Positions 13,715 to 57,093 of a stretch of 64,000 bases of DNA are shown here, piece after piece. Under the pieces are notes generated by a model that did not search any database, had not been told where the DNA came from, and saw only the letters and a program-made list of their open reading frames with translations. Position numbers and translations under genes: made by a program. Positions within the stretch are counted from its first letter, which is position 1. Every line of letters begins with the position of its first letter. The stretch is from Vulcanimicrobiota bacterium (GTDB lineage Bacteria; Vulcanimicrobiota; Vulcanimicrobiia; Vulcanimicrobiales; Vulcanimicrobiaceae): assembly GCA_963723515.1 (NCBI GenBank), contig CAVRQT010000003.1, positions 128,001 through 192,000 on the forward strand. Direction: 5' to 3'.

Positions 13715-14683
13715 ATGGCACGAATCTATGAAAATATCACGGACACGTTCGGCAATACACCGCTCGTCAAGATTCCGCGGCTGACTCGCGCGCTTCAGGC
13801 GACCGTGCTGGTCAAGATGGAGTCGTTCAATCCGGCGGGTTCCGTCAAAGACCGTATCGGCGTTTCGATGATCGAGGCGGCTGAACGCGAGGGCCGGCTG
13901 CGCCCGAATACGACGATCGTCGAACCGACGAGCGGCAACACCGGGATCGCGCTCGCATTTGTGGCCGCCGCGAAAGGGTATCCATGCATTCTGACGATGC
14001 CCGATACGATGACGATCGAGCGGCGCAACCTGCTGCGCGCCTACGGTGCGCAAGTCGTGCTGACGCCGGGCGCTGAAGGCATGCCCGGCGCGATTCGCCG
14101 CGCACGTGAAATCGTCGCCAGCGATCCGGCGCGTTTCCACATGCCGGGGCAGTTTGAGAATCCCGCAAATCCCGAAATTCACCGCCGAACGACTGCTGAA
14201 GAAATTTGGCGCGACACGGACGGAAATATCGACGTGCTCGTCGCGGCGGTCGGAACCGGCGGCACGATCACCGGCGTGGCGGAAGTCATCCGCTCGCGGC
14301 GACCATCGTTTCAAGCGATCGCCGTCGAACCCGCCGGATCGCCCGTGCTTTCCGGAGGTGCGCCCGGCCCACACAAGATTCAAGGAACCGGCGCCGGCTT
14401 TGTGCCGCAAGTGCTCAACACGGAGATCTATGCCGAAGTCATCCGCGTCAGCGATCAAGACGCGATCGAAACGGCGCGTCGTGCGGCGCGCGAGGAAGGC
14501 ATGCTCGTCGGCATTTCGTCGGGTGCGAATCTGTGGGCTGCGCTCGAGGTCGCAAAGCGCGAGAAGATGCGAGGAAAAACGATCGTCACGATCGCGTGTG
14601 ATACGGGCGAACGGTATCTCTCGAATCCGCTCTTCGCCGATCAGGCGCCGCCCGTTCACGAAGCGACCCTGAGCCTGCCCTGA
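13715..14683 (+). CDS. cysK: Cysteine synthase A
   Basis: [48 protein letters not shown]. The last codons (TLSLP*) come from a repeat. Confidence 0.95.
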
Positions 14684-14718
14684 GCTGGTCGAAAGCCTGC
14701 ACTGAGCTTGTCGAAGTG
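14668..14718 (-). repeat. Cluster of three nested/tandem hairpin repeat units
   Basis: The minus strand reads CACTTCGACAAGCTCAGTGCAGGC-TTTCGACCAGCTCAGGGCAGG-CTCAGGG. Confidence 0.85.
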
Positions 14719-35232: not shown

Positions 35233-36306
35233 CGTCGCGCCCGAAAGCCGTCGTGCTGGGGGTGCAGCTTCCGCAAGCGCGAGATTCGTTCGCCGCGGAG
35301 CTCGCGGAATTTGCGGCCCTGATCGAGGCGGCCGGCGCCTCCATCGTAGAAGAAATCGTCCAAAGTCGCGCTCGGCTCGATCCAGGATTTGTCGTTGGAA
35401 GCGGTAAGGCGCATGACGTTGCGGATCGCATCTCCGCAACCGCTGCGAAGCTGCTGTTCGTGTTGAATCCGATGCGGCCGCGCCAGCGACGCAATCTGGA
35501 ACGGCTCATCACCGTCCCGATCATCGACCGCACGATGTTGATCCTCGACGTCTTTGCGCGCCATGCCCGTTCGAGGGAAGGCAAGTTGCAAGTCGAGCTG
35601 GCGCAGCTGCGGTATCGGCAATCGAATTTGATCGGCGTCGGGACGCGATCTGTCGCGGCTCGGCGGCGGGATCGGCACGCGCGGCCCCGGCGAGACGAAA
35701 TTGGAGACGGATCGGCGCCGCATCGCACAACGAATCAAAATGATTGCGCATGCCCTTGAAGGCGTGCGCCGCTCGCGTGCGACCCGACGCGACCGCGAGC
35801 GCACCGAGCCGATCGTGGCGCTGGTCGGATACACCAATGCCGGCAAATCTTCGCTGCTGAACCGGCTGGCGCGCGGCGACGCGCTCGTCGCCGATCAGCC
35901 CTTTGCGACGCTCGATCCATTGATGCGCCGCGCTTATCTCGGTGATGGAAGGTTCGTGCGGGTGGTCGATACCGTCGGCTTCATCACGGATTTGCCGCCC
36001 GACCTCGTGACGGCGTTTCAGGCGACGCTTGAAGAGCTGGACGCCGCGGATTTGTTCATCCATGTGATCGATGCCTCAAATCCGGATTGGAGACGGCAAG
36101 TCGCAAGCGTGGATATGATCTTGCACGACTTGCGGCTGAGCGGAAAGCCGCAACTTCTCGTCCTGAACAAGTGCGATGCTCTCGCCGAGCCGCCGCAGGC
36201 GCCGGAACACTTCGACAAGCTCAGTGCGGGCTATCTCTGTATCAGCGCAAAAACCGGCGCGGGCATCGACGCGTTGCGCGCCGAAGTGCGTGAACGTTTC
36301 CCATGA
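35229..36306 (+). CDS. hflX: GTPase HflX, short form (one frameshift ~35645)
   Basis: GSGK, DRTMLILDVFARHARSREGKLQVELAQL, GPGETKLETDRR, GYTNAGKS, FATLDP, DTVGF, NKCD, SAK. Confidence 0.93.
36208..36231 (+). repeat. 24-nt hairpin repeat unit in frame within hflX
   Basis: CACTTCGACAAGCTCAGTGCGGGC encodes HFDKLSAG and is 23/24 identical to the reverse complement of 14695-14718. Confidence 0.9.
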
Positions 36307-48588: not shown

Positions 48589-48905
48589 ACGAAGCGGCGC
48601 TGCCGGTCGCGATCGTCAACTACATCGCGCTTTCGGCGGTCATTCTGTTCATTGGCGCGGCAGGCGTCATGCTGCGACGCAACCCGCTGATCATGCTGAT
48701 GTCGATCGAACTGATGTGGAATGCCGCAAACCTGCTCTTCCTCGCCTTCGCGCGCGCATGGCTCAACAACGCCGGACACATCTTCGCGTTCATCGTCATT
48801 ACGGTCGCCGCGGCGGAGGCCGCGATCGGCTTGGCGATTGTGGTCGTCGTCTTTCGATCGTCGCGCACGGTTGACGTCGACGAAGTGACGAGCTTGAGGG
48901 GTTGA
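48585..48905 (+). CDS. nuoK: NADH-quinone oxidoreductase subunit K
   Basis: RRN..MSIELM, VAAAEAAIGLA. Confidence 0.95.
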   Translation: MNEAALPVAIVNYIALSAVILFIGAAGVMLRRNPLIMLMSIELMWNAANLLFLAFARAWLNNAGHIFAFIVITVAAAEAAIGLAIVVVVFRSSRTVDVDEVTSLRG

Positions 48906-49106
48906 TGCATCAGATACGCCCTGTCACGCTGAGCCTGTCGAAGCGCCACCGTTATCGCGGCATTAAAGTAGCGCCTTTAGACGTGATCCAGGATAGGCTA
49001 GCCAGATTTGCACGACCCTTCGATGCTTCGACACTTCGACATGCTCAGTGCAGGCTGCCGCTCAGCACAGGCGTTCTCAGGGTGACACACCGCTGATGCA
49101 TCAGAT
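48903..49106. mobile_element. Non-autonomous (MITE/REPIN-like) insertion: an inverted pair of hairpin repeats with nested copies, flanked by a 13-bp direct repeat
   Basis: TGATGCATCAGAT at 48903-48915 and 49094-49106. Inverted ends TGTCACGCTGAG (48922-48933) and CTCAGGGTGACA (49076-49087). Confidence 0.75.
48905..49096 (+). CDS. 63-aa repeat-derived ORF coupled (TGATG) to both nuoK and nuoL
   Basis: Its ATG overlaps the nuoK stop and its stop overlaps the nuoL ATG. Translation is inferred, not shown. Confidence 0.45.
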   Translation: MHQIRPVTLSLSKRHRYRGIKVAPLDVIQDRLARFARPFDASTLRHAQCRLPLSTGVLRVTHR

Positions 49107-51087
49107 TGGCGTTGCCGGAACCTATCCGCTGCTGTATTTGATTTGGCTCTTGCCGCTCGCCGGTGCGATTGTGTGCTGGGCGTTTGGCCCGCAGCTGCGC
49201 ACGCTGGCCGGTTCGCTCGGCAGTGCGGCAATCGGCGCTGCGTTTCTTGCGACGATTCTCTCCTGGGGGAGCGCGATGCAGCGCAGCGGCGGACTGCTCG
49301 GCGCACATCAGCATATCGGCTCCTGGTTCCGCGGCTTCGATTTCGGGCTGCTGCTCGATCCGCTCTCGCTCATTTGGGCGCTAATCATCACGGGCGTCGG
49401 GTTCGTCATTCACCTCTACTCGATCGGCTATATGAGCGGCGATCGTGCGTACGCGCGCTTCTTCGGTTACATGAATTTCTTCGTCTTCGCGATGCTGACG
49501 CTCGTGCTCGCGGACAACTTTGTGCTTTTGCTCGTCGGCTGGGGCCTCGTTGGTTTGGCTTCGTACTTCTTGATCGGATTCTGGTTCGAACGGCCGACGG
49601 CCGTCGCCGCGGCGCGCAAGGCGTTCGTCATCAATGTTGTCGGCGATGTCGCCATGCTCTTCGCAATCTTCATTATCTTTGCAAAGGTGGGCTCGATTTC
49701 GTATGCCGACGTCTTTGCAAATCCAACAGTGCTTGGATCGTCATTATTGCTCGTTTGCATCTGCCTCTTCATCGGCGCGGCGGCGAAATCGGCGCAAGTA
49801 CCGCTGCACACATGGTTGCCCGACGCGATGGAGGGTCCGACGCCGGTTTCCGCATTGATTCACGCGGCGACGATGGTCACCGCCGGCGTCTATCTCGTCG
49901 CCCGGTGCTGGCCGCTTTGGAATGCCTCACATGATGCGCAGACGATTGCCGGCACGATCGGCGCATTGACGGCGCTGATCGGGGCGGTTCTCGGAACGTC
50001 CCAGTGGGATATCAAGCGAATTTTGGCCTATTCGACGATGTCGCAGATCGGCTACATGATCATGGGCGTCGGCGTCGGTGCATATGAAGGCGGCGTCGCA
50101 CATTTCTTTACGCACGCATTTTTCAAGGCGCAGCTTTTCTTGGCGGCGGGGCTCGTCATTCACGCGCTTGCAAACGAGCAAGACGTGCGATTGATGGGCG
50201 GTTTACGCAAACGCATGCCGCTGGCGTTCTGGGCCATGGTGGTCGGCGTCTTGGCGATCTGCGGCGTTCCGGGACTCTCGGGCTTTTTCAGCAAGGACGC
50301 GGTCATCTTCGGAGCGCTCGAGCACGGCCATCCGTGGCTCTATGCGATCGGCATCGTTACCGCGGGCATCACGGCATACTACATGTTCCGGATGCTCTTT
50401 CTGACGTTTTTCGGCGAGTATCGGGGCGAGATGAGGCCGGACGAACTCGGCATTCCGTCCGAGGAAGCGCAAGCGATTACCGCCCTTCGAGAGCCTCAGG
50501 ACGCACATGAGCCGGCGCACGAAGAAGAACATGCGCCGGCGTGGGTGATGAACGCGCCGGTTGCGGTGCTCATCATCCCGTCAATCATTGCGGGCTGGCT
50601 GCTCGTCGGCGGCGAGAGCTCGCCGTGGCACCGGTTCTTCGCGGGGCAATTTCAAACCGTGACCGGCCCGACACCGGTCAGCGAGCTCGTGACGTCGCTG
50701 CTCGTGCTGCTTTTCGTTTTGGCCGGCGTCGCGGTCGCCTATCTGCGTTATGCTGCTGCGCCGGCACTGGCCAACGCGCCGGCGCGCTTGCAACGCGAAT
50801 CGCTTCGCATGCCGGCCGCACTCACGCAGCTGCTGTATTTTGATACCGCGATCGATATACTGTTCGTCAAACCGGCCATCGGTTTAGGGGTGATCTTCGG
50901 CCGTGCATTCGATCCGCACGTTATCGACGGCGCGGTGCGTGAGGCGGTAATTTCCGCCCGCTGGCTCGGGCATCTCTTTCGTAGCTTTCAAACGGGACTC
51001 GTTCGTGCGTACGCAGTGATCATGATCTTCGGCGCGGCATGCTTCATCGCGTATTATGCCTTTGCACGCGGGCTCGTGATGCGCTGA
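49096..51087 (+). CDS. nuoL: NADH-quinone oxidoreductase subunit L
   Basis: YSIGYM, KSAQVPLHTWLPDAMEGPTPVSALIHAATMVTAG, HAFFKA, GFFSKD. Confidence 0.96.
   Translation: MHQIGVAGTYPLLYLIWLLPLAGAIVCWAFGPQLRTLAGSLGSAAIGAAFLATILSWGSAMQRSGGLLGAHQHIGSWFRGFDFGLLLDPLSLIWALIITGVGFVIHLYSIGYMSGDRAYARFFGYMNFFVFAMLTLVLADNFVLLLVGWGLVGLASYFLIGFWFERPTAVAAARKAFVINVVGDVAMLFAIFIIFAKVGSISYADVFANPTVLGSSLLLVCICLFIGAAAKSAQVPLHTWLPDAMEGPTPVSALIHAATMVTAGVYLVARCWPLWNASHDAQTIAGTIGALTALIGAVLGTSQWDIKRILAYSTMSQIGYMIMGVGVGAYEGGVAHFFTHAFFKAQLFLAAGLVIHALANEQDVRLMGGLRKRMPLAFWAMVVGVLAICGVPGLSGFFSKDAVIFGALEHGHPWLYAIGIVTAGITAYYMFRMLFLTFFGEYRGEMRPDELGIPSEEAQAITALREPQDAHEPAHEEEHAPAWVMNAPVAVLIIPSIIAGWLLVGGESSPWHRFFAGQFQTVTGPTPVSELVTSLLVLLFVLAGVAVAYLRYAAAPALANAPARLQRESLRMPAALTQLLYFDTAIDILFVKPAIGLGVIFGRAFDPHVIDGAVREAVISARWLGHLFRSFQTGLVRAYAVIMIFGAACFIAYYAFARGLVMR
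50483..50501 (+). repeat. Divergent hairpin repeat copy in frame within the NuoL loop
   Basis: CCCTTCGAGAGCCTCAGGA (ALREPQD) keeps TTCGA-N4-CTCAG and the stem. Confidence 0.65.
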
Positions 51088-56046: not shown

Positions 56047-57093
56047 CTATCGGCAACTGTCACCCTGAGCTGCATCGAAGGGCGACATGGTGCCTTTGTA
56101 CTTCATCGGCGTCTCTTCCATGCCGAAGTTATCTGCGTACAGTGACGAGATTCGCTCCAATTCGTCTCGTGTGAGCGGCGCAGTATCGGGCGCCTTGGCA
56201 AATTCGGTCAATTGTTCTTCATCGTAGATGTTCGGCAAGACCGTCATGATGCGCGGTTCCGCGAGCAGCCATTGAATTGCGGCTTGCCCGAGCGTGCGCT
56301 CGGGCGTCTCGAGAAAGCGCAGCTGTTCGATTTTCTCGATGCCGTTCAAGAGCCAGGAGCGCGGCCGATGGCGGCGGTGGTCGCCGGCCGGGAACGTCGT
56401 CTCGGCAGTGTATTTGCCCTCCAGCATCCCGCTTGAGTGCGGAACGCGCACCATATAACCGGTATTCGCTTGCGCTTCGTAGGCCGCGCGCAGCATCTCA
56501 TTGCCGGGATACTGCTCGAGAATGTTCCAGATCATCTGAATGCTTGTCACGTTGCGTGTCCGCGCCGCTTCGATCCCTTCGACGAGCCACCCGATGGCAG
56601 GGCCGAGCGCAACGCCGTAATAGCGAATCTTGCCTTCCGCTTTAAACGATTCGAGTAGCGCGAAGAGCTCATCGCTCTGGATCTGATCGAGATGCGCGTT
56701 GTGGATCTGGTAGAGATCGATCGTGTCGGTTTGTAAACGGCGCAGCGACTGCTCGAGGGCGAAGCGCACGAACTTCGGTGAGAAGTCGGCCGGAATCTCT
56801 TGCTGGCCTTTGCGCTCGCCGGCGTAGTTGTAGAAATCGTAGCCGAACTTCGTCGCGTAGACAACGCGCTCACGGCGACCGGCAAAAGCTTTCGCTAGTT
56901 GTTGCTCGCTGCGGCCGTTGCCGTATGTATCGGCCGCGTCGAAGAGCGTGATGCCGAGATCGAACGCTTTTTGCAGCAACTCAATGGCCTGGTCATCCGT
57001 CTTGTCGCCCCACCAGCCCGTTGAGGTGGTCCACAGACCGAAGCCGACCTCGCTGACGAGCAGATCCGTCTTGGGATACGGGCGATATTTCAT
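56047..57093 (-). CDS. Aldo/keto reductase
   Basis: VSEVGFG, FDAADTYGNG, ATKFG, SLRRLQTDTIDLYQIH. Confidence 0.92.
   Translation of the reverse strand: MKYRPYPKTDLLVSEVGFGLWTTSTGWWGDKTDDQAIELLQKAFDLGITLFDAADTYGNGRSEQQLAKAFAGRRERVVYATKFGYDFYNYAGERKGQQEIPADFSPKFVRFALEQSLRRLQTDTIDLYQIHNAHLDQIQSDELFALLESFKAEGKIRYYGVALGPAIGWLVEGIEAARTRNVTSIQMIWNILEQYPGNEMLRAAYEAQANTGYMVRVPHSSGMLEGKYTAETTFPAGDHRRHRPRSWLLNGIEKIEQLRFLETPERTLGQAAIQWLLAEPRIMTVLPNIYDEEQLTEFAKAPDTAPLTRDELERISSLYADNFGMEETPMKYKGTMSPFDAAQGDSCR
56058..56082 (-). repeat. Hairpin repeat copy (TGACA tail) forming the C-terminus of the aldo/keto reductase
   Basis: Minus strand CCCTTCGATGCAGCTCAGGGTGACA encodes PFDAAQGD. Confidence 0.85.

What the first reader, a model, noticed from the sequence alone, without database searches (positions are those of the whole stretch)
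49016..49087. Russian-doll nesting: three repeat units inserted inside each other at the same internal site
Seen: CCCTTCGA[TGCTTCGA[CACTTCGACATGCTCAGTGCAGGC]TGCCGCTCAGCACAGG]CGTTCTCAGGGTGACA. Removing the inner 24 nt restores a unit with a TGCT/AGCA stem and a TGCCG spacer, close to TGCAG in the 56058 copy. Removing that unit restores a CCCT/AGGG unit with the TGACA tail (boundaries +/-1 nt). The left arms (CCC, TGC, CAC) are matched in reverse order on the right (GTG, GCA, GGG), which slippage or tandem duplication would not produce. Inference: CAGG-tailed units insert right after TTCGA of existing copies, i.e. a self-targeting micro-element of ~24 nt.
Basis: partly seen in the sequence, partly recalled or inferred. 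Interest (0 to 1): 0.88.

Follow-up and report, generated by a model that had tools for sequence, protein, structure and literature searches.

The report
Self-nesting 24-base hairpin repeats
Three copies of a tiny hairpin-forming DNA repeat sit one inside the other between two respiratory-chain genes, and the same nesting occurs in bacteria of many phyla, so this looks like a roughly 24-base mobile unit that inserts into the loops of its own relatives.

Summary
It is far beyond chance and is not an isolated oddity.

The units (xyzTTCGA, a 4-5 nt loop, CTCAz'y'x') belong to a repeat family with about 120-170 copies in this genome. About 27 copies are doubles and 3-4 are triples. Arms pair in mirror order in 19 of 20 informative doubles, with 0 in direct order.

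Inner units carry a CAGGC tail, and 26 of 38 such units lie directly after TTCGA. None of 107 TGACA-tailed units does. Nested inner units share the host unit's orientation in 35 cases and are inverted in 0.

Comparisons of filled and unfilled sites support insertion of a discrete module of about 24 nt:
- two arrays of paralogous repeats;
- one orthologous site, single in the sister species and double here;
- a 24-nt in-frame insert in a GTPase gene, absent from 8 of 8 relatives aligned.

The whole nuoK-nuoL block is absent from the sister species and is flanked by a 13-nt duplication.

The family flanks a 100-aa GIY-YIG nuclease gene, as the published Ssn/NTS hairpin repeats do. It does not fit that paper's search motif, and that paper does not mention nesting.

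Earlier notes of this scan describe comparable hairpin systems on other DNA, but none matched by sequence. The insertion mechanism is inferred, not shown.

The parts
48903..48915 (+). Left copy of a 13-nt direct repeat, TGATGCATCAGAT. It contains the nuoK stop codon TGA and the start of a 10-nt palindrome, TGATGCATCA. It reads as native junction sequence that was duplicated by the insertion.
   Evidence: Relatives have TGATGCATCAC at the uninterrupted junction (L005 and L007).
48916..49093 (.). A 178-nt inserted block, absent from the same-genus genome G001. It consists of an inverted single unit, a unique interior of about 70 nt, and the triple nest, with the unit tails pointing outward.
   Evidence: In G001 the nuoK-nuoL gap is 5 nt, against 193 nt here. 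No other copy of the interior was found in G000.
48920..48945 (-). Single TGACA-tailed unit. On the minus strand it reads CGC TTCGA CAGG CTCA GCG TGACAGG.
   Evidence: core at 48929-48943, minus strand.
49016..49023 (+). Left half of the outer unit (CCC TTCGA).
49024..49072 (+). Middle unit. It reads TGC TTCGA ... (T)GCCG CTCA GCA CAGGC and is itself interrupted by the inner unit.
   Evidence: TGC-armed units with CGCCG-type loops are the commonest inner type in G000.
49032..49055 (+). Innermost 24-nt unit (CAC TTCGA CATG CTCA GTG CAGGC). The following T at 49056 may belong to it.
   Evidence: The same CAC unit stands alone elsewhere in the genome.
49073..49087 (+). Loop remnant GTT, right half CTCA GGG and TGACA tail of the outer unit.
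49094..49106 (+). Right copy of the 13-nt direct repeat. It contains a TGA that overlaps the nuoL start codon ATG at 49096.
48905..49096 (+). Open frame of 63 codons. It runs from the duplicated ATG through the whole insert to the duplicated TGA, which overlaps the nuoL ATG. It may keep nuoK-nuoL translational coupling.
   Evidence: ORF 48902..49096. Reading it as a bridge for coupling is inference.
36208..36231 (+). Stand-alone 24-nt unit (CAC TTCGA CAAG CTCA GTG CGGGC) inserted in frame in an HflX-like GTPase gene, adding 8 residues. The boundaries could instead be 36205-36228.
   Evidence: The insert is absent from 8 of 8 relatives aligned.
14672..14718 (-). CAGGC-tailed unit followed by partial tandem units with a 22-nt period.
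56058..56082 (-). Single TGACA-tailed unit with a 5-nt loop, TGCAG.

Best explanation
The 72-nt stretch is a three-deep nest of one repeat family.

The basic unit is a weak hairpin of 19-20 nt: xyz-TTCGA, a 4-5 nt loop, then CTCA-z'y'x'. Host units end in TGACA. On the other strand this reads TGTCA followed by the hairpin, which is the design of the published Ssn-related hairpin repeats. In this lineage these units frame a 100-aa single-domain GIY-YIG nuclease gene.

A sub-family of units carries a short CAGG, CAGGC or CAGGCT tail instead. These behave as discrete modules of 23-26 nt that are inserted, always in the host's orientation, between the TTCGA and the loop of a resident unit. Repeating this gives dolls of depth 2, 3 and more.

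Shown here:
- the discrete module and its preferred site;
- strict orientation and mirror-order arms;
- presence/absence states at paralogous, orthologous and coding sites;
- the link of the family to the GIY-YIG gene;
- the occurrence of the same nests in many phyla.

Inferred, not shown:
- Insertion happens on single-stranded DNA, in the loop of an extruded or replication-exposed hairpin.
- The Ssn-type nuclease takes part, by releasing unit-length single strands from arrays, by nicking targets, or both.
- Host repair enzymes seal the joints.

Once formed, nests are also copied as blocks. They are eroded by slippage between the 8-nt-spaced left halves.

At this locus the nest arrived as part of, or built up inside, a 178-nt composite block. 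That block was inserted into the palindromic nuoK-stop/nuoL-start overlap with a 13-nt duplication.
For: Family size. There are 109 exact cores in 2.11 Mb. A strict parse finds 157 singles, 21 doubles and 3 triples. The nest pattern matches 27 times.

Arm pairing in G000 doubles. Inner arms are perfect in 22 of 27 and outer arms in 22 of 27. Permutation means are 7.3 and 7.0, with maxima of 16 and 15 in 2000 permutations. Of 20 doubles with different left arms, 19 fit mirror order, 0 fit direct order and 1 is a tie.

Arm pairing elsewhere:
- In other genomes, 63 fit mirror order, 2 direct and 17 tie, out of 82 informative.
- In metagenome triples, 17 fit mirror order, 0 direct and 9 tie, out of 26 informative.

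Site and orientation:
- 26 of 38 CA[AG]GC-tailed units lie directly after TTCGA, and 2 more with one mismatch. Of 107 TGAC-tailed units, 0 do. The background frequency of TTCGA is 0.0019 per position.
- Inner units are in the host's orientation 35 times and inverted 0 times.

Clean junctions. The spacer is CAGG plus an intact CA[AG]G loop in 42 of 120 cases and CAGGC plus that loop in 21 of 120.

Empty versus filled sites:
- In the C3:291290-291560 repeats, copies 1, 2 and 4 are single and copy 3 is triple. In C3:373590-374300, copy 1 is single and the later copies are double.
- At the orthologous site C3:26215-26330, G000 has a pair of doubles and G001 a pair of singles. The host loop CAAG is left as ..T AAG.
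- The GTPase gene has a 24-nt in-frame insert, absent from 8 of 8 relatives aligned.

Not a by-product of copy number. Relatives with 57-426 units have 0-1 nests, against 27 nests for 120 units here.

Nuclease link:
- The gene at C3:290985-291284 lies between outward-pointing units, and its stop codon comes from a TGACA tail.
- Of 12 homologous loci, 9 have units next to the gene, 6 of them on both sides.
- A strong homologue is present in 8 of 11 family-f1 genomes with at least 10 units, against 4 of 14 with fewer. It is present in 0 of 16 genomes of f2 and f3, which have no units.

Published biochemistry of the Ssn family. These enzymes cut only ssDNA, bind the hairpin, and cut a few nt upstream of the GTCA-type box (PMC11893778, sections read).
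Against: - No enzyme activity was tested. GIY-YIG nucleases are not known to join DNA.
- The preferred site lies inside the host loop. The published Ssn enzymes cut upstream of the hairpin, not there.
- Inner units lack the GTCA box.
- The family matches the published SRM search motif in 0 of 120 units. I could not place the protein in the cd10448 clade. Its nearest solved relatives are UPF0213 proteins.
- G001 has 44 units but no detectable homologue; that genome is 77% complete.
- In this genome the 3' junction is not clean. CAGGCT is followed by the host loop minus its first base, so the boundary is uncertain by 1-2 nt.
- Many nests in metagenomes have unequal numbers of left and right halves. 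For example, 64 of 123 loci have 3 left halves but only 1 or 2 matched right halves, and identical arms often recur. Slippage therefore contributes and could mimic repeated insertion.
- The two ends of the C2:752290-752660 element share one inner unit, which shows inheritance of nests as blocks.
- The direction of change (gain or precise loss) at the orthologous site is not polarised by an outgroup.
- The strand bias relative to GC skew is mixed. Contig C3 gives 60 against 31 in the expected direction, but C2 does not follow.
Confidence: 0.6

Rival explanations
1. Nests are replication errors. Template switching or slippage occurs among clustered quasi-palindromic repeats, with microhomology (TTCGA on the left, C[AG]AGCT/CAGGCT on the right) fixing the apparent boundaries. 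No dedicated enzyme and no discrete mobile module are involved.
For: - Runs of identical left halves have 4 to 11 copies and unequal numbers of right halves.
- Arrays with 22-nt and 27-nt periods occur in this window and in G006.
- The tail CAGG equals the commonest alternative loop, so the junctions carry microhomology.
- Orphan right halves exist, such as C3:291543 and C3:819201.
Against: - The arms of successive layers differ and pair in mirror order. Local duplication cannot make that.
- The same 24-nt module occurs alone in a coding sequence with no family unit nearby, and at other non-family sites.
- Relatives with three times more units have no nests.
- A switch that lands exactly upstream of another unit's left arm would need a donor that is already nested.
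Confidence: 0.2
2. The nested form is a selected structure, a protein-binding DNA element or an RNA element. It propagates as a whole and varies by compensatory change. The layers were never separate insertions.
For: - The double has one conserved design in many phyla.
- The two ends of one composite element carry the same inner unit, and their outer arms differ by a compensatory pair, CCC/GGG against CGC/GCG.
- Arm covariation is strong.
Against: - Predicted folding is unremarkable. The triple as DNA has a minimum free energy of -12.5 kcal/mol, a z-score of -0.68, and a predicted fold that is not the nested one. The single unit has z of +0.8 to +0.9.
- No Rfam family matches.
- Units occur in both orientations relative to genes.
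- Single and nested states alternate within otherwise identical repeats and between sister species.
- Depth varies from 1 to 5.
Confidence: 0.12
3. The pattern is chance or an assembly artefact.
For: The genome is a metagenome-type assembly. Public reads do not cover the nested part.
Against: - Shuffles essentially never give the pattern.
- There are 27 nests in this genome.
- At least 123 loci in other assemblies carry such nests, isolates among them, and at least 123 further metagenome loci do.
Confidence: 0.01

Closest known systems
Ssn-related motifs (NTS/SRM hairpin repeats) with the SsnA GIY-YIG single-strand nuclease (Chenal et al. 2025, PMC11893778). I read the abstract, Results sections 6-8 and 10, the Discussion, Methods section 17 and Supplementary Data 5.
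   Same: - Short oriented hairpin repeats with a GTCA-type box on one side.
- Hundreds of copies, mostly intergenic.
- They frame a single-domain GIY-YIG gene of about 95-100 aa on both sides (repeat-gene-repeat).
- They are found across phyla.
   Different: - The stem and loop sequence differ. None of the 120 units fits the paper's degenerate SRM pattern.
- The stems are only 4-8 bp.
- The paper's main text has 0 occurrences of 'nested' and 'tandem'. It does not show mobility.
- The tailed inner units here lack the GTCA box.
- Membership of the protein in the cd10448 clade is untested.
REP / REPIN elements with RAYT transposases. Known to me from search listings and abstracts; details are recalled.
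   Same: - Short imperfect palindromes.
- Often in inverted pairs with a spacer.
- Non-autonomous.
- Tied to one single-copy enzyme gene that they flank.
   Different: - No Y1/RAYT gene was found (PF01797; the genome is 88% complete).
- The partner here is a GIY-YIG nuclease.
- Units are smaller, 19-26 nt.
- Self-nesting is, to my knowledge (recalled), not a described feature of REPINs. The one search on this returned listings and abstracts only.
[quoted passage not shown] As summarised in the Discussion of PMC11893778; details are recalled.
   Same: - Insertion directly 3' of a short specific sequence.
- Strict orientation.
- No target duplication at the nest junctions.
- Hairpin-dependent.
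- Expected to act on single-stranded DNA.
   Different: - No HUH/Y1 transposase is present.
- The element is a single 24-nt hairpin rather than two distinct subterminal hairpins around a gene.
- The target lies inside the loop of a sister element.
Rickettsia palindromic elements (RPE) and other in-frame palindromic inserts. Recalled; also named in earlier notes of this scan.
   Same: A palindromic repeat is tolerated in frame inside a conserved protein (the GTPase gene).
   Different: RPEs are roughly five times longer (recalled). Here only one coding case was seen, and most copies are intergenic.

Membership tests
Ssn-related motif (SRM/NTS) repeats with SsnA | Short inverted repeat (20-50 nt) able to form a hairpin | tested here: met
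   Complementary arms far exceed permutation (22 of 27 perfect against a mean of 7). The predicted stability of the free hairpin is low.
Ssn-related motif (SRM/NTS) repeats with SsnA | Conserved oriented flank (C)GTCA directly 5' of the palindrome | tested here: met
   107 of 167 perfect-arm units end in TGAC(A), which is TGTCA plus the hairpin on the other strand. The 38 CA[AG]GC-tailed inner-type units do not have it.
Ssn-related motif (SRM/NTS) repeats with SsnA | Fits the published degenerate search sequence HGTCWYN(0-2)YYVSBRHN(0-5)WNVSBRGN(0-2)RNCYNB | tested here: not met
   0 of 120 units fit. There are 9 matches in the whole genome, against 22-31 in 5 block-shuffled copies.
Ssn-related motif (SRM/NTS) repeats with SsnA | Repeats flank a single-domain GIY-YIG gene of about 95-100 aa on both sides | tested here: met
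   G000 C3:290985-291284 has units on both sides. Of 12 homologous loci in relatives, 6 have units on both sides, 3 on one side and 3 on neither (one of the six is the unpublished G022).
Ssn-related motif (SRM/NTS) repeats with SsnA | [quoted passage not shown] | not testable with these tools
   No CDD library is available. Pfam gives GIY-YIG at 53.7 bits. NCBIfam gives no hit. The nearest solved structures are UPF0213 proteins 1zg2 and 1ywl, E about 1e-10.
Ssn-related motif (SRM/NTS) repeats with SsnA | The enzyme cuts only ssDNA, on one strand, a few nt upstream of the motif | not testable with these tools
   This needs biochemistry.
REP/REPIN with RAYT | A Y1 (RAYT) transposase gene flanked by the repeats | tested here: not met
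   PF01797 gives no match in G000, which is 88% complete. The search hits 6 of 14 control genomes.
REP/REPIN with RAYT | Two hairpins in inverted orientation forming the mobile doublet | tested here: inconclusive
   Inverted pairs are common. Their interiors are unique rather than conserved.
IS200/IS605-type single-strand elements | HUH/Y1 transposase | tested here: not met
IS200/IS605-type single-strand elements | Oriented insertion 3' of a specific short sequence without target duplication | tested here: met
   26 of 38 tailed units lie after TTCGA. Orientation is 35 against 0. No duplication is seen at nest junctions. This shows similar behaviour, not membership.
Known RNA families (Rfam 15) | Match to a curated covariance model | tested here: not met
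   In 48800-49200 there are only 4 chance-level matches, at 10.8-15.7 bits against gathering scores of 53-97.

The most novel reading that the evidence does not exclude
A hairpin-plus-tail module of about 24 nt is a mobile DNA unit in its own right, the smallest I know of (recalled, not searched), and it has spread over roughly ten bacterial phyla. It would move as a single-stranded oligonucleotide cut out of arrays by an Ssn-type GIY-YIG nuclease. It would then be pasted, in one orientation, into single-stranded hairpin loops, preferentially those of its own family. This would produce Russian dolls, tandem arrays and occasional 8-codon insertions in proteins. It would give the recently discovered Ssn nucleases a role as the engine of a new transposition mode that lacks a classical transposase.
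Probability: 0.3. Interest if true: 0.85.

Novelty: new variant of a known kind. Interest (0 to 1): 0.68.

Why it matters
Hairpin repeats tied to Ssn single-strand nucleases were described only in 2025. How they multiply is open, and the authors only raised the comparison with insertion sequences.

This locus and its relatives give sequence-level evidence that members of such a family move as discrete units of about 24 nt. The units have a preferred site and a fixed orientation. They can stack inside each other, interrupt an operon junction and add residues to a protein.

This turns the question of how these repeats spread into an experiment with defined substrates: unit, tail and TTCGA loop. 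It also widens the repeat class beyond the published search motif. Finally, it explains a very common source of spurious small ORFs in many phyla, for example peptides like FDKLS or LRQAQ.

Tried and rejected
- Rfam search of 48800-49200: nothing meaningful.
- Full-text searches for four 14-mers of the unit and their complements: 0 papers. The same strings in 12 of the 14 supplementary files of PMC11893778 (two were not searched): 0.
- Earlier notes of this scan: none by sequence and none for this genome.
- Public runs: the best share of words was 0.13. Laid contigs cover only 48795-48929 and parts of nuoL, so the nest is neither confirmed nor refuted.
- Metagenome scan for alleles of this junction with a 23-mer: 0 hits.
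- Word-indexed protein search with the nuclease: only 16 mostly unnamed hits, no help for family placement. NCBIfam: no hit.
- Looked for remnants of the nuclease gene inside the composite blocks: none.
- Two other G000/G001 orthologous sites (C1 about 73050, C3 about 947060) carry different arrangements in the two genomes. They could not be read as simple gain or loss.
- A fourth G000/G001 site (C2 about 540925) falls at contig ends in G001.
- Fold-back synthesis as the origin of mirror order: rejected, because the left half (TTCGA) and right half (CTCA) are not complementary.
- Target-site duplication at nest junctions: rejected, because the two adjacent CAGG copies do not flank the insert.
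- Replication-strand bias: suggestive in contig C3 but not in C2. Left as inconclusive.
Full report
**1. The observation**

Three left halves stand at 8-nt spacing: CCC-TTCGA, TGC-TTCGA and CAC-TTCGA. They are followed by a 4-nt loop, CATG. Three right halves then follow: CTCA-GTG, CTCA-GCA and CTCA-GGG. The spacers between them begin with CAGGC, and the stretch closes with TGACA.

The arms pair in mirror order. Three TTCGA at this spacing occur once in the window, against 0.02 expected from shuffles. The unit core occurs 7 times against 0.62 expected.

The stretch lies between the nuoK stop and the nuoL start.

**2. The family in this genome**

The window is G000:C3:128001-192000. The genome has 2.11 Mb in 4 contigs and GC about 0.60.

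- The exact core CTTCGACANGCTCAG occurs 109 times.
- Units ending in TGACA occur 120 times.
- A strict grammar finds 157 singles, 21 doubles and 3 triples. It requires a perfect innermost stem and at least 2 of 3 pairs in outer stems.
- A looser scan shows about 36 clusters, degenerate ones included.

Single units mostly have the loop CAAG (74 of 157) or CAGG (18 of 157). The arms are CGC, CCC, CAC, TGC or TCC.

Two contexts recur for TGACA-tailed units. One is ..ATTACGGTGG-unit-TGACAG. The other is ..GTCA-unit-TGACACTGGGAC, where GTCA/TGAC lengthen the stem.

**3. Is the nesting more than juxtaposition?**

For the 27 matches of the double-nest pattern in G000:
- Inner arms are perfectly complementary in 22 and outer arms in 22.
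- Re-dealing the right arms gives means of 7.3 and 7.0, with maxima of 16 and 15 in 2000 permutations.
- Of the 20 doubles whose two left arms differ, 19 fit mirror order better, 0 fit direct order and 1 ties.

Tail type predicts position. Of 38 perfect-arm units followed by CA[AG]GC, 26 lie directly after TTCGA, 2 after a one-mismatch TTCGA and 10 elsewhere. Of 107 units followed by TGAC, none lies after an exact TTCGA and 2 lie after a one-mismatch version. TTCGA has a background frequency of 0.0019 per position.

An inner unit in the host's orientation follows TTCGA 35 times. An inverted inner unit inside a host was found 0 times.

The ten tailed units that stand outside nests show that the tail travels with the unit.

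**4. Empty and filled sites**

(a) Paralogues.
- At C3:291290-291560 a tandem repeat of about 62 nt carries a single unit in copies 1, 2 and 4, and a triple in copy 3, with the same flanks.
- At C3:373590-374300 the first copy of a longer repeat has GTTG-CCC-TTCGA-CAAG-CTCA-GGG-TGACAGTGGCG. The later copies have 26 nt (TGC-TTCGG-CGCTG-CTCA-GCA-CAGGCT) in place of the first loop base.

(b) Orthologue.
- At C3:26215-26330, G000 has a head-to-head pair of doubles. The same-genus genome G001 has a head-to-head pair of singles between the same flanking genes.
- The G001 single CGC-TTCGA-CAAG-CTCA-GCG-TGACA corresponds to the G000 double CGC-TTCGA-[CAC..GTG-CAAGCT]-AAG-CTCA-GCG-TGACA.
- The pair appears flipped between the two genomes. 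The direction of change is not polarised.

(c) Coding sequence.
- The HflX-like GTPase gene at window 35701-36306 has 8 extra residues (..PEHFDKLSAG..), encoded by CAC-TTCGA-CAAG-CTCA-GTG-CGGGC.
- The 24 nt are absent from all 8 relatives that I aligned: G001, G002, G003, G005, G006, G007, G008 and G028.
- Five further loci returned were not examined.
- The boundaries can be placed at 36208-36231 (unit plus a CAGGC-like tail) or at 36205-36228.

(d) The nuoK-nuoL block.
- G001 has a 5-nt gap where G000 has 193 nt.
- Of the 17 relatives whose locus held both genes, three have large inserts: G013 with 289 nt, G006 with 1145 nt and G005 with 454 nt. In the other 14 the tblastn gap is 5 to 113 nt. 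The longer of these gaps reflect alignments that stop short of the gene ends, by my reading.
- The G006 insert is filled with arrays of this same family. The G013 insert begins with a degenerate unit. The G005 insert is other DNA.
- In G000 the block is bounded by a 13-nt direct repeat, TGATGCATCAGAT (48903-48915 and 49094-49106). This is native junction sequence containing the 10-nt palindrome TGATGCATCA.
- No relative shows 1 or 2 layers at this site.

(e) A 370-nt block at C2:752290-752660 has an inverted double at each end. It is replaced by 10 nt in G001.
- Its two ends share the same inner unit, while their outer arms differ by a compensatory pair.
- Nests are therefore also inherited as blocks.

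**5. Distribution**

The record titles shown name the following groups:
- Comamonadaceae and other Betaproteobacteria, and Gammaproteobacteria;
- Flavobacteriia and other Bacteroidota;
- Chloroflexota and Planctomycetota;
- Verrucomicrobiota and Kiritimatiellia;
- Cyanobacteria;
- Binatia, Latescibacterota, Dadabacteria and Eremiobacterota-type taxa;
- two candidate-phyla-radiation groups.

In 120 parsed nests from 119 loci:
- Outer arms are perfect in 81 (permutation mean 24.0) and inner arms in 63 (mean 21.0).
- Of 82 nests with different left arms, 63 fit mirror order, 2 direct order and 17 tie.
- The spacer is CAGG plus an intact CAAG/CAGG loop in 42, and CAGGC plus that loop in 21. This is what a clean insertion of a 23-24-nt module between TTCGA and the host loop predicts.

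- 49 loci could be parsed with three right halves.
- Of 26 with differing outer and inner arms, 17 fit mirror order, 0 direct order and 9 tie.
- Two loci (L281, L314) repeat the hierarchy seen in the window: a CAC unit inside a TGC unit inside a CCC or CGC unit.
- Depth reaches 4-5. Many loci have more left than right halves, up to 11 left halves against 1 right. I read this as later slippage of the 8-nt-spaced left halves.

Nesting does not follow copy number. Relatives G006, G017, G007, G016 and G002 have 426, 396, 146, 90 and 57 TGACA-tailed units. They have 0, 1, 0, 0 and 0 nests. G000 has 120 units and 27 nests, and G001 has 44 units and 2 nests. G006 instead expands units as arrays with a 27-nt period.

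**6. The partner gene**

G000 has three Pfam GIY-YIG matches:
- One lies in a 665-aa open frame. I take it to be uvrC from its size; this was not tested.
- One is a 92-aa gene without flanking units.
- One is a 100-aa gene at C3:290985-291284.

The 100-aa gene lies between units whose tails point outward: minus-strand units at 290798, 290915 and 291001, and plus-strand units at 291310, 291372, 291432 (a triple) and 291543. Its stop codon is the TGA of a TGACA tail. No Y1/RAYT gene was found.

Among 12 homologous loci in the taxonomic family, 6 have units on both sides of the gene, 3 on one side and 3 on neither. The last three are genomes with 0-3 units.

A strong homologue (E of 1e-24 or lower) is present in 8 of 11 family-f1 genomes with at least 10 units, and in 4 of 14 with fewer. 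It is present in none of the 16 genomes of the two neighbouring families, which have no units. These genomes are kin, so no statistical test is claimed. G022 (unpublished) is among the eight.

**7. What is known**

Chenal et al. 2025 (PMC11893778) describe the Ssn family. I read the abstract, Results sections 6-8 and 10, the Discussion, Methods section 17 and Supplementary Data 5.

- The enzymes are single-domain GIY-YIG nucleases of about 94 aa.
- They bind an oriented hairpin repeat (NTS/SRM, CGTCA plus a palindrome) only as ssDNA, and cut a few nt upstream.
- The repeats flank the gene, and the authors point out the likeness to insertion sequences.
- The main text has no occurrence of 'nested' or 'tandem'.

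The present family shares the architecture and the GTCA-type box, but it fits their degenerate search pattern in 0 of 120 units. I could not test whether the protein belongs to cd10448. Its nearest solved structures are UPF0213 proteins.

No paper in the library contains the unit's sequence. No Rfam family matches.

**8. Mechanism**

Shown:
- There is a discrete module of 23-26 nt.
- It has a preferred site after TTCGA in the loop of a sister unit.
- Its orientation is strict.
- There is no duplication at the junction.
- It occurs at non-family sites.
- The family is linked to the GIY-YIG gene.

The free hairpins are weak. The triple has a DNA minimum free energy of -12.5 kcal/mol with z of -0.68, and the single unit has z of about +0.8 to +0.9. 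Recognition probably needs a protein, and a stable-RNA reading is not supported.

Inferred:
- Insertion occurs on ssDNA. This rests on the one-orientation rule, a site inside a loop and an ssDNA-specific partner enzyme.
- The tail side of the module ends 4-7 nt from the stem. This is about where the published enzymes cut relative to their box. Cleavage of tandem arrays would therefore release exactly unit-plus-tail fragments. This is a hint, based on geometry only.

Not explained:
- How the loop is opened after TTCGA.
- Who joins the ends.

The strand bias of units relative to GC skew is in the expected direction in contig C3 (60 against 31) but not in C2.

**9. Consequence at this locus**

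The insertion split a TGATG stop/start overlap. The 13-nt duplication keeps a stop for nuoK and a start for nuoL. The frame from the duplicated ATG (48905) stays open for 63 codons through the whole insert, as far as the duplicated TGA that overlaps the nuoL ATG. This could keep translational coupling. An open frame of this length would arise by chance about one time in ten (my estimate).

**10. Verdict**

The family-level identity is a variant of a kind described in 2025: hairpin repeats partnered with an Ssn-like GIY-YIG nuclease. The following are, as far as my searches reach, not in print:
- the self-nesting 24-nt module;
- its site and orientation rules;
- its occurrence across phyla;
- the coding insertion.

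Claims that rest partly on genomes flagged unpublished:
- the co-occurrence and gene-flank counts include G022;
- the junction list includes G020;
- G009 and G036 enter only as genomes without units.

Noticed in passing
window 48903-48915 and 49094-49106; ORF 48905-49096: A 13-nt direct repeat bounds the whole inserted block. A 63-codon open frame bridges from the duplicated start to the duplicated stop that overlaps the nuoL ATG. This may preserve translational coupling between nuoK and nuoL.
   Followed up: partly
window 36208-36231: A 24-nt unit is inserted in frame in an HflX-like GTPase gene, between the NKxD and SAK motifs. It is absent from 8 of 8 relatives aligned.
   Followed up: yes
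window 14672-14718 (minus strand): A tailed unit is followed by partial units with a 22-nt period that lack their own left arm. The stretch lies near the 5' end of a long minus-strand open frame, and a plus-strand frame starts at 14716. I did not test whether it is coding.
   Followed up: no
G000 C3:30527, C3:282206, C4:1174 (outside the window): The 19-nt CAC unit, without a tail, sits at the tip of a GC-rich inverted repeat (GCCCGCCC ... GGGCGGGGGC) in three copies of a larger repeat.
   Followed up: no
G000 C2:631483 and C3:760901 (outside the window): Two copies of a conserved element of about 90 nt (GGGGGCCCCAGCTCGGCTGGGGGGCG, then a TCC unit, then CAAGC..GCGCTTAGAGCGGAGCGCC). One copy lies directly upstream of an rpmH-like start (MKRTFQP..).
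   Followed up: no
G006 C1:441169-441729, C1:1886211-1886667 and locus L009: A relative expands the same family as long tandem arrays with a 27-nt period and has 0 nests. One array cluster of 1145 nt fills its nuoK-nuoL junction, so this junction is a recurrent insertion site.
   Followed up: partly
G000 C2:752290-752660 (locus L175:7290-7660): A 370-nt composite block, absent from G001, has inverted doubles at both ends. The ends share one inner unit, and their outer arms differ by a compensatory pair (CCC/GGG against CGC/GCG).
   Followed up: partly
G000 C3:291543 and C3:819201: Orphan or tandemly repeated right halves carry TGACA tails (for example CTCAGTG-TGACAGGTTAG three times). They are consistent with loss of left halves by 8-nt slippage, or with nests whose inner unit is TGACA-tailed.
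   Followed up: no
G000 contig C3, whole: Unit orientation follows the sign of GC skew. In the positive-skew part there are 31 minus and 15 plus units; in the negative-skew part there are 29 plus and 16 minus. Contig C2 does not show this.
   Followed up: partly
G000 C3:112533-112811 (locus L147:234-512): A second small GIY-YIG gene (92 aa), with no family units beside it.
   Followed up: no
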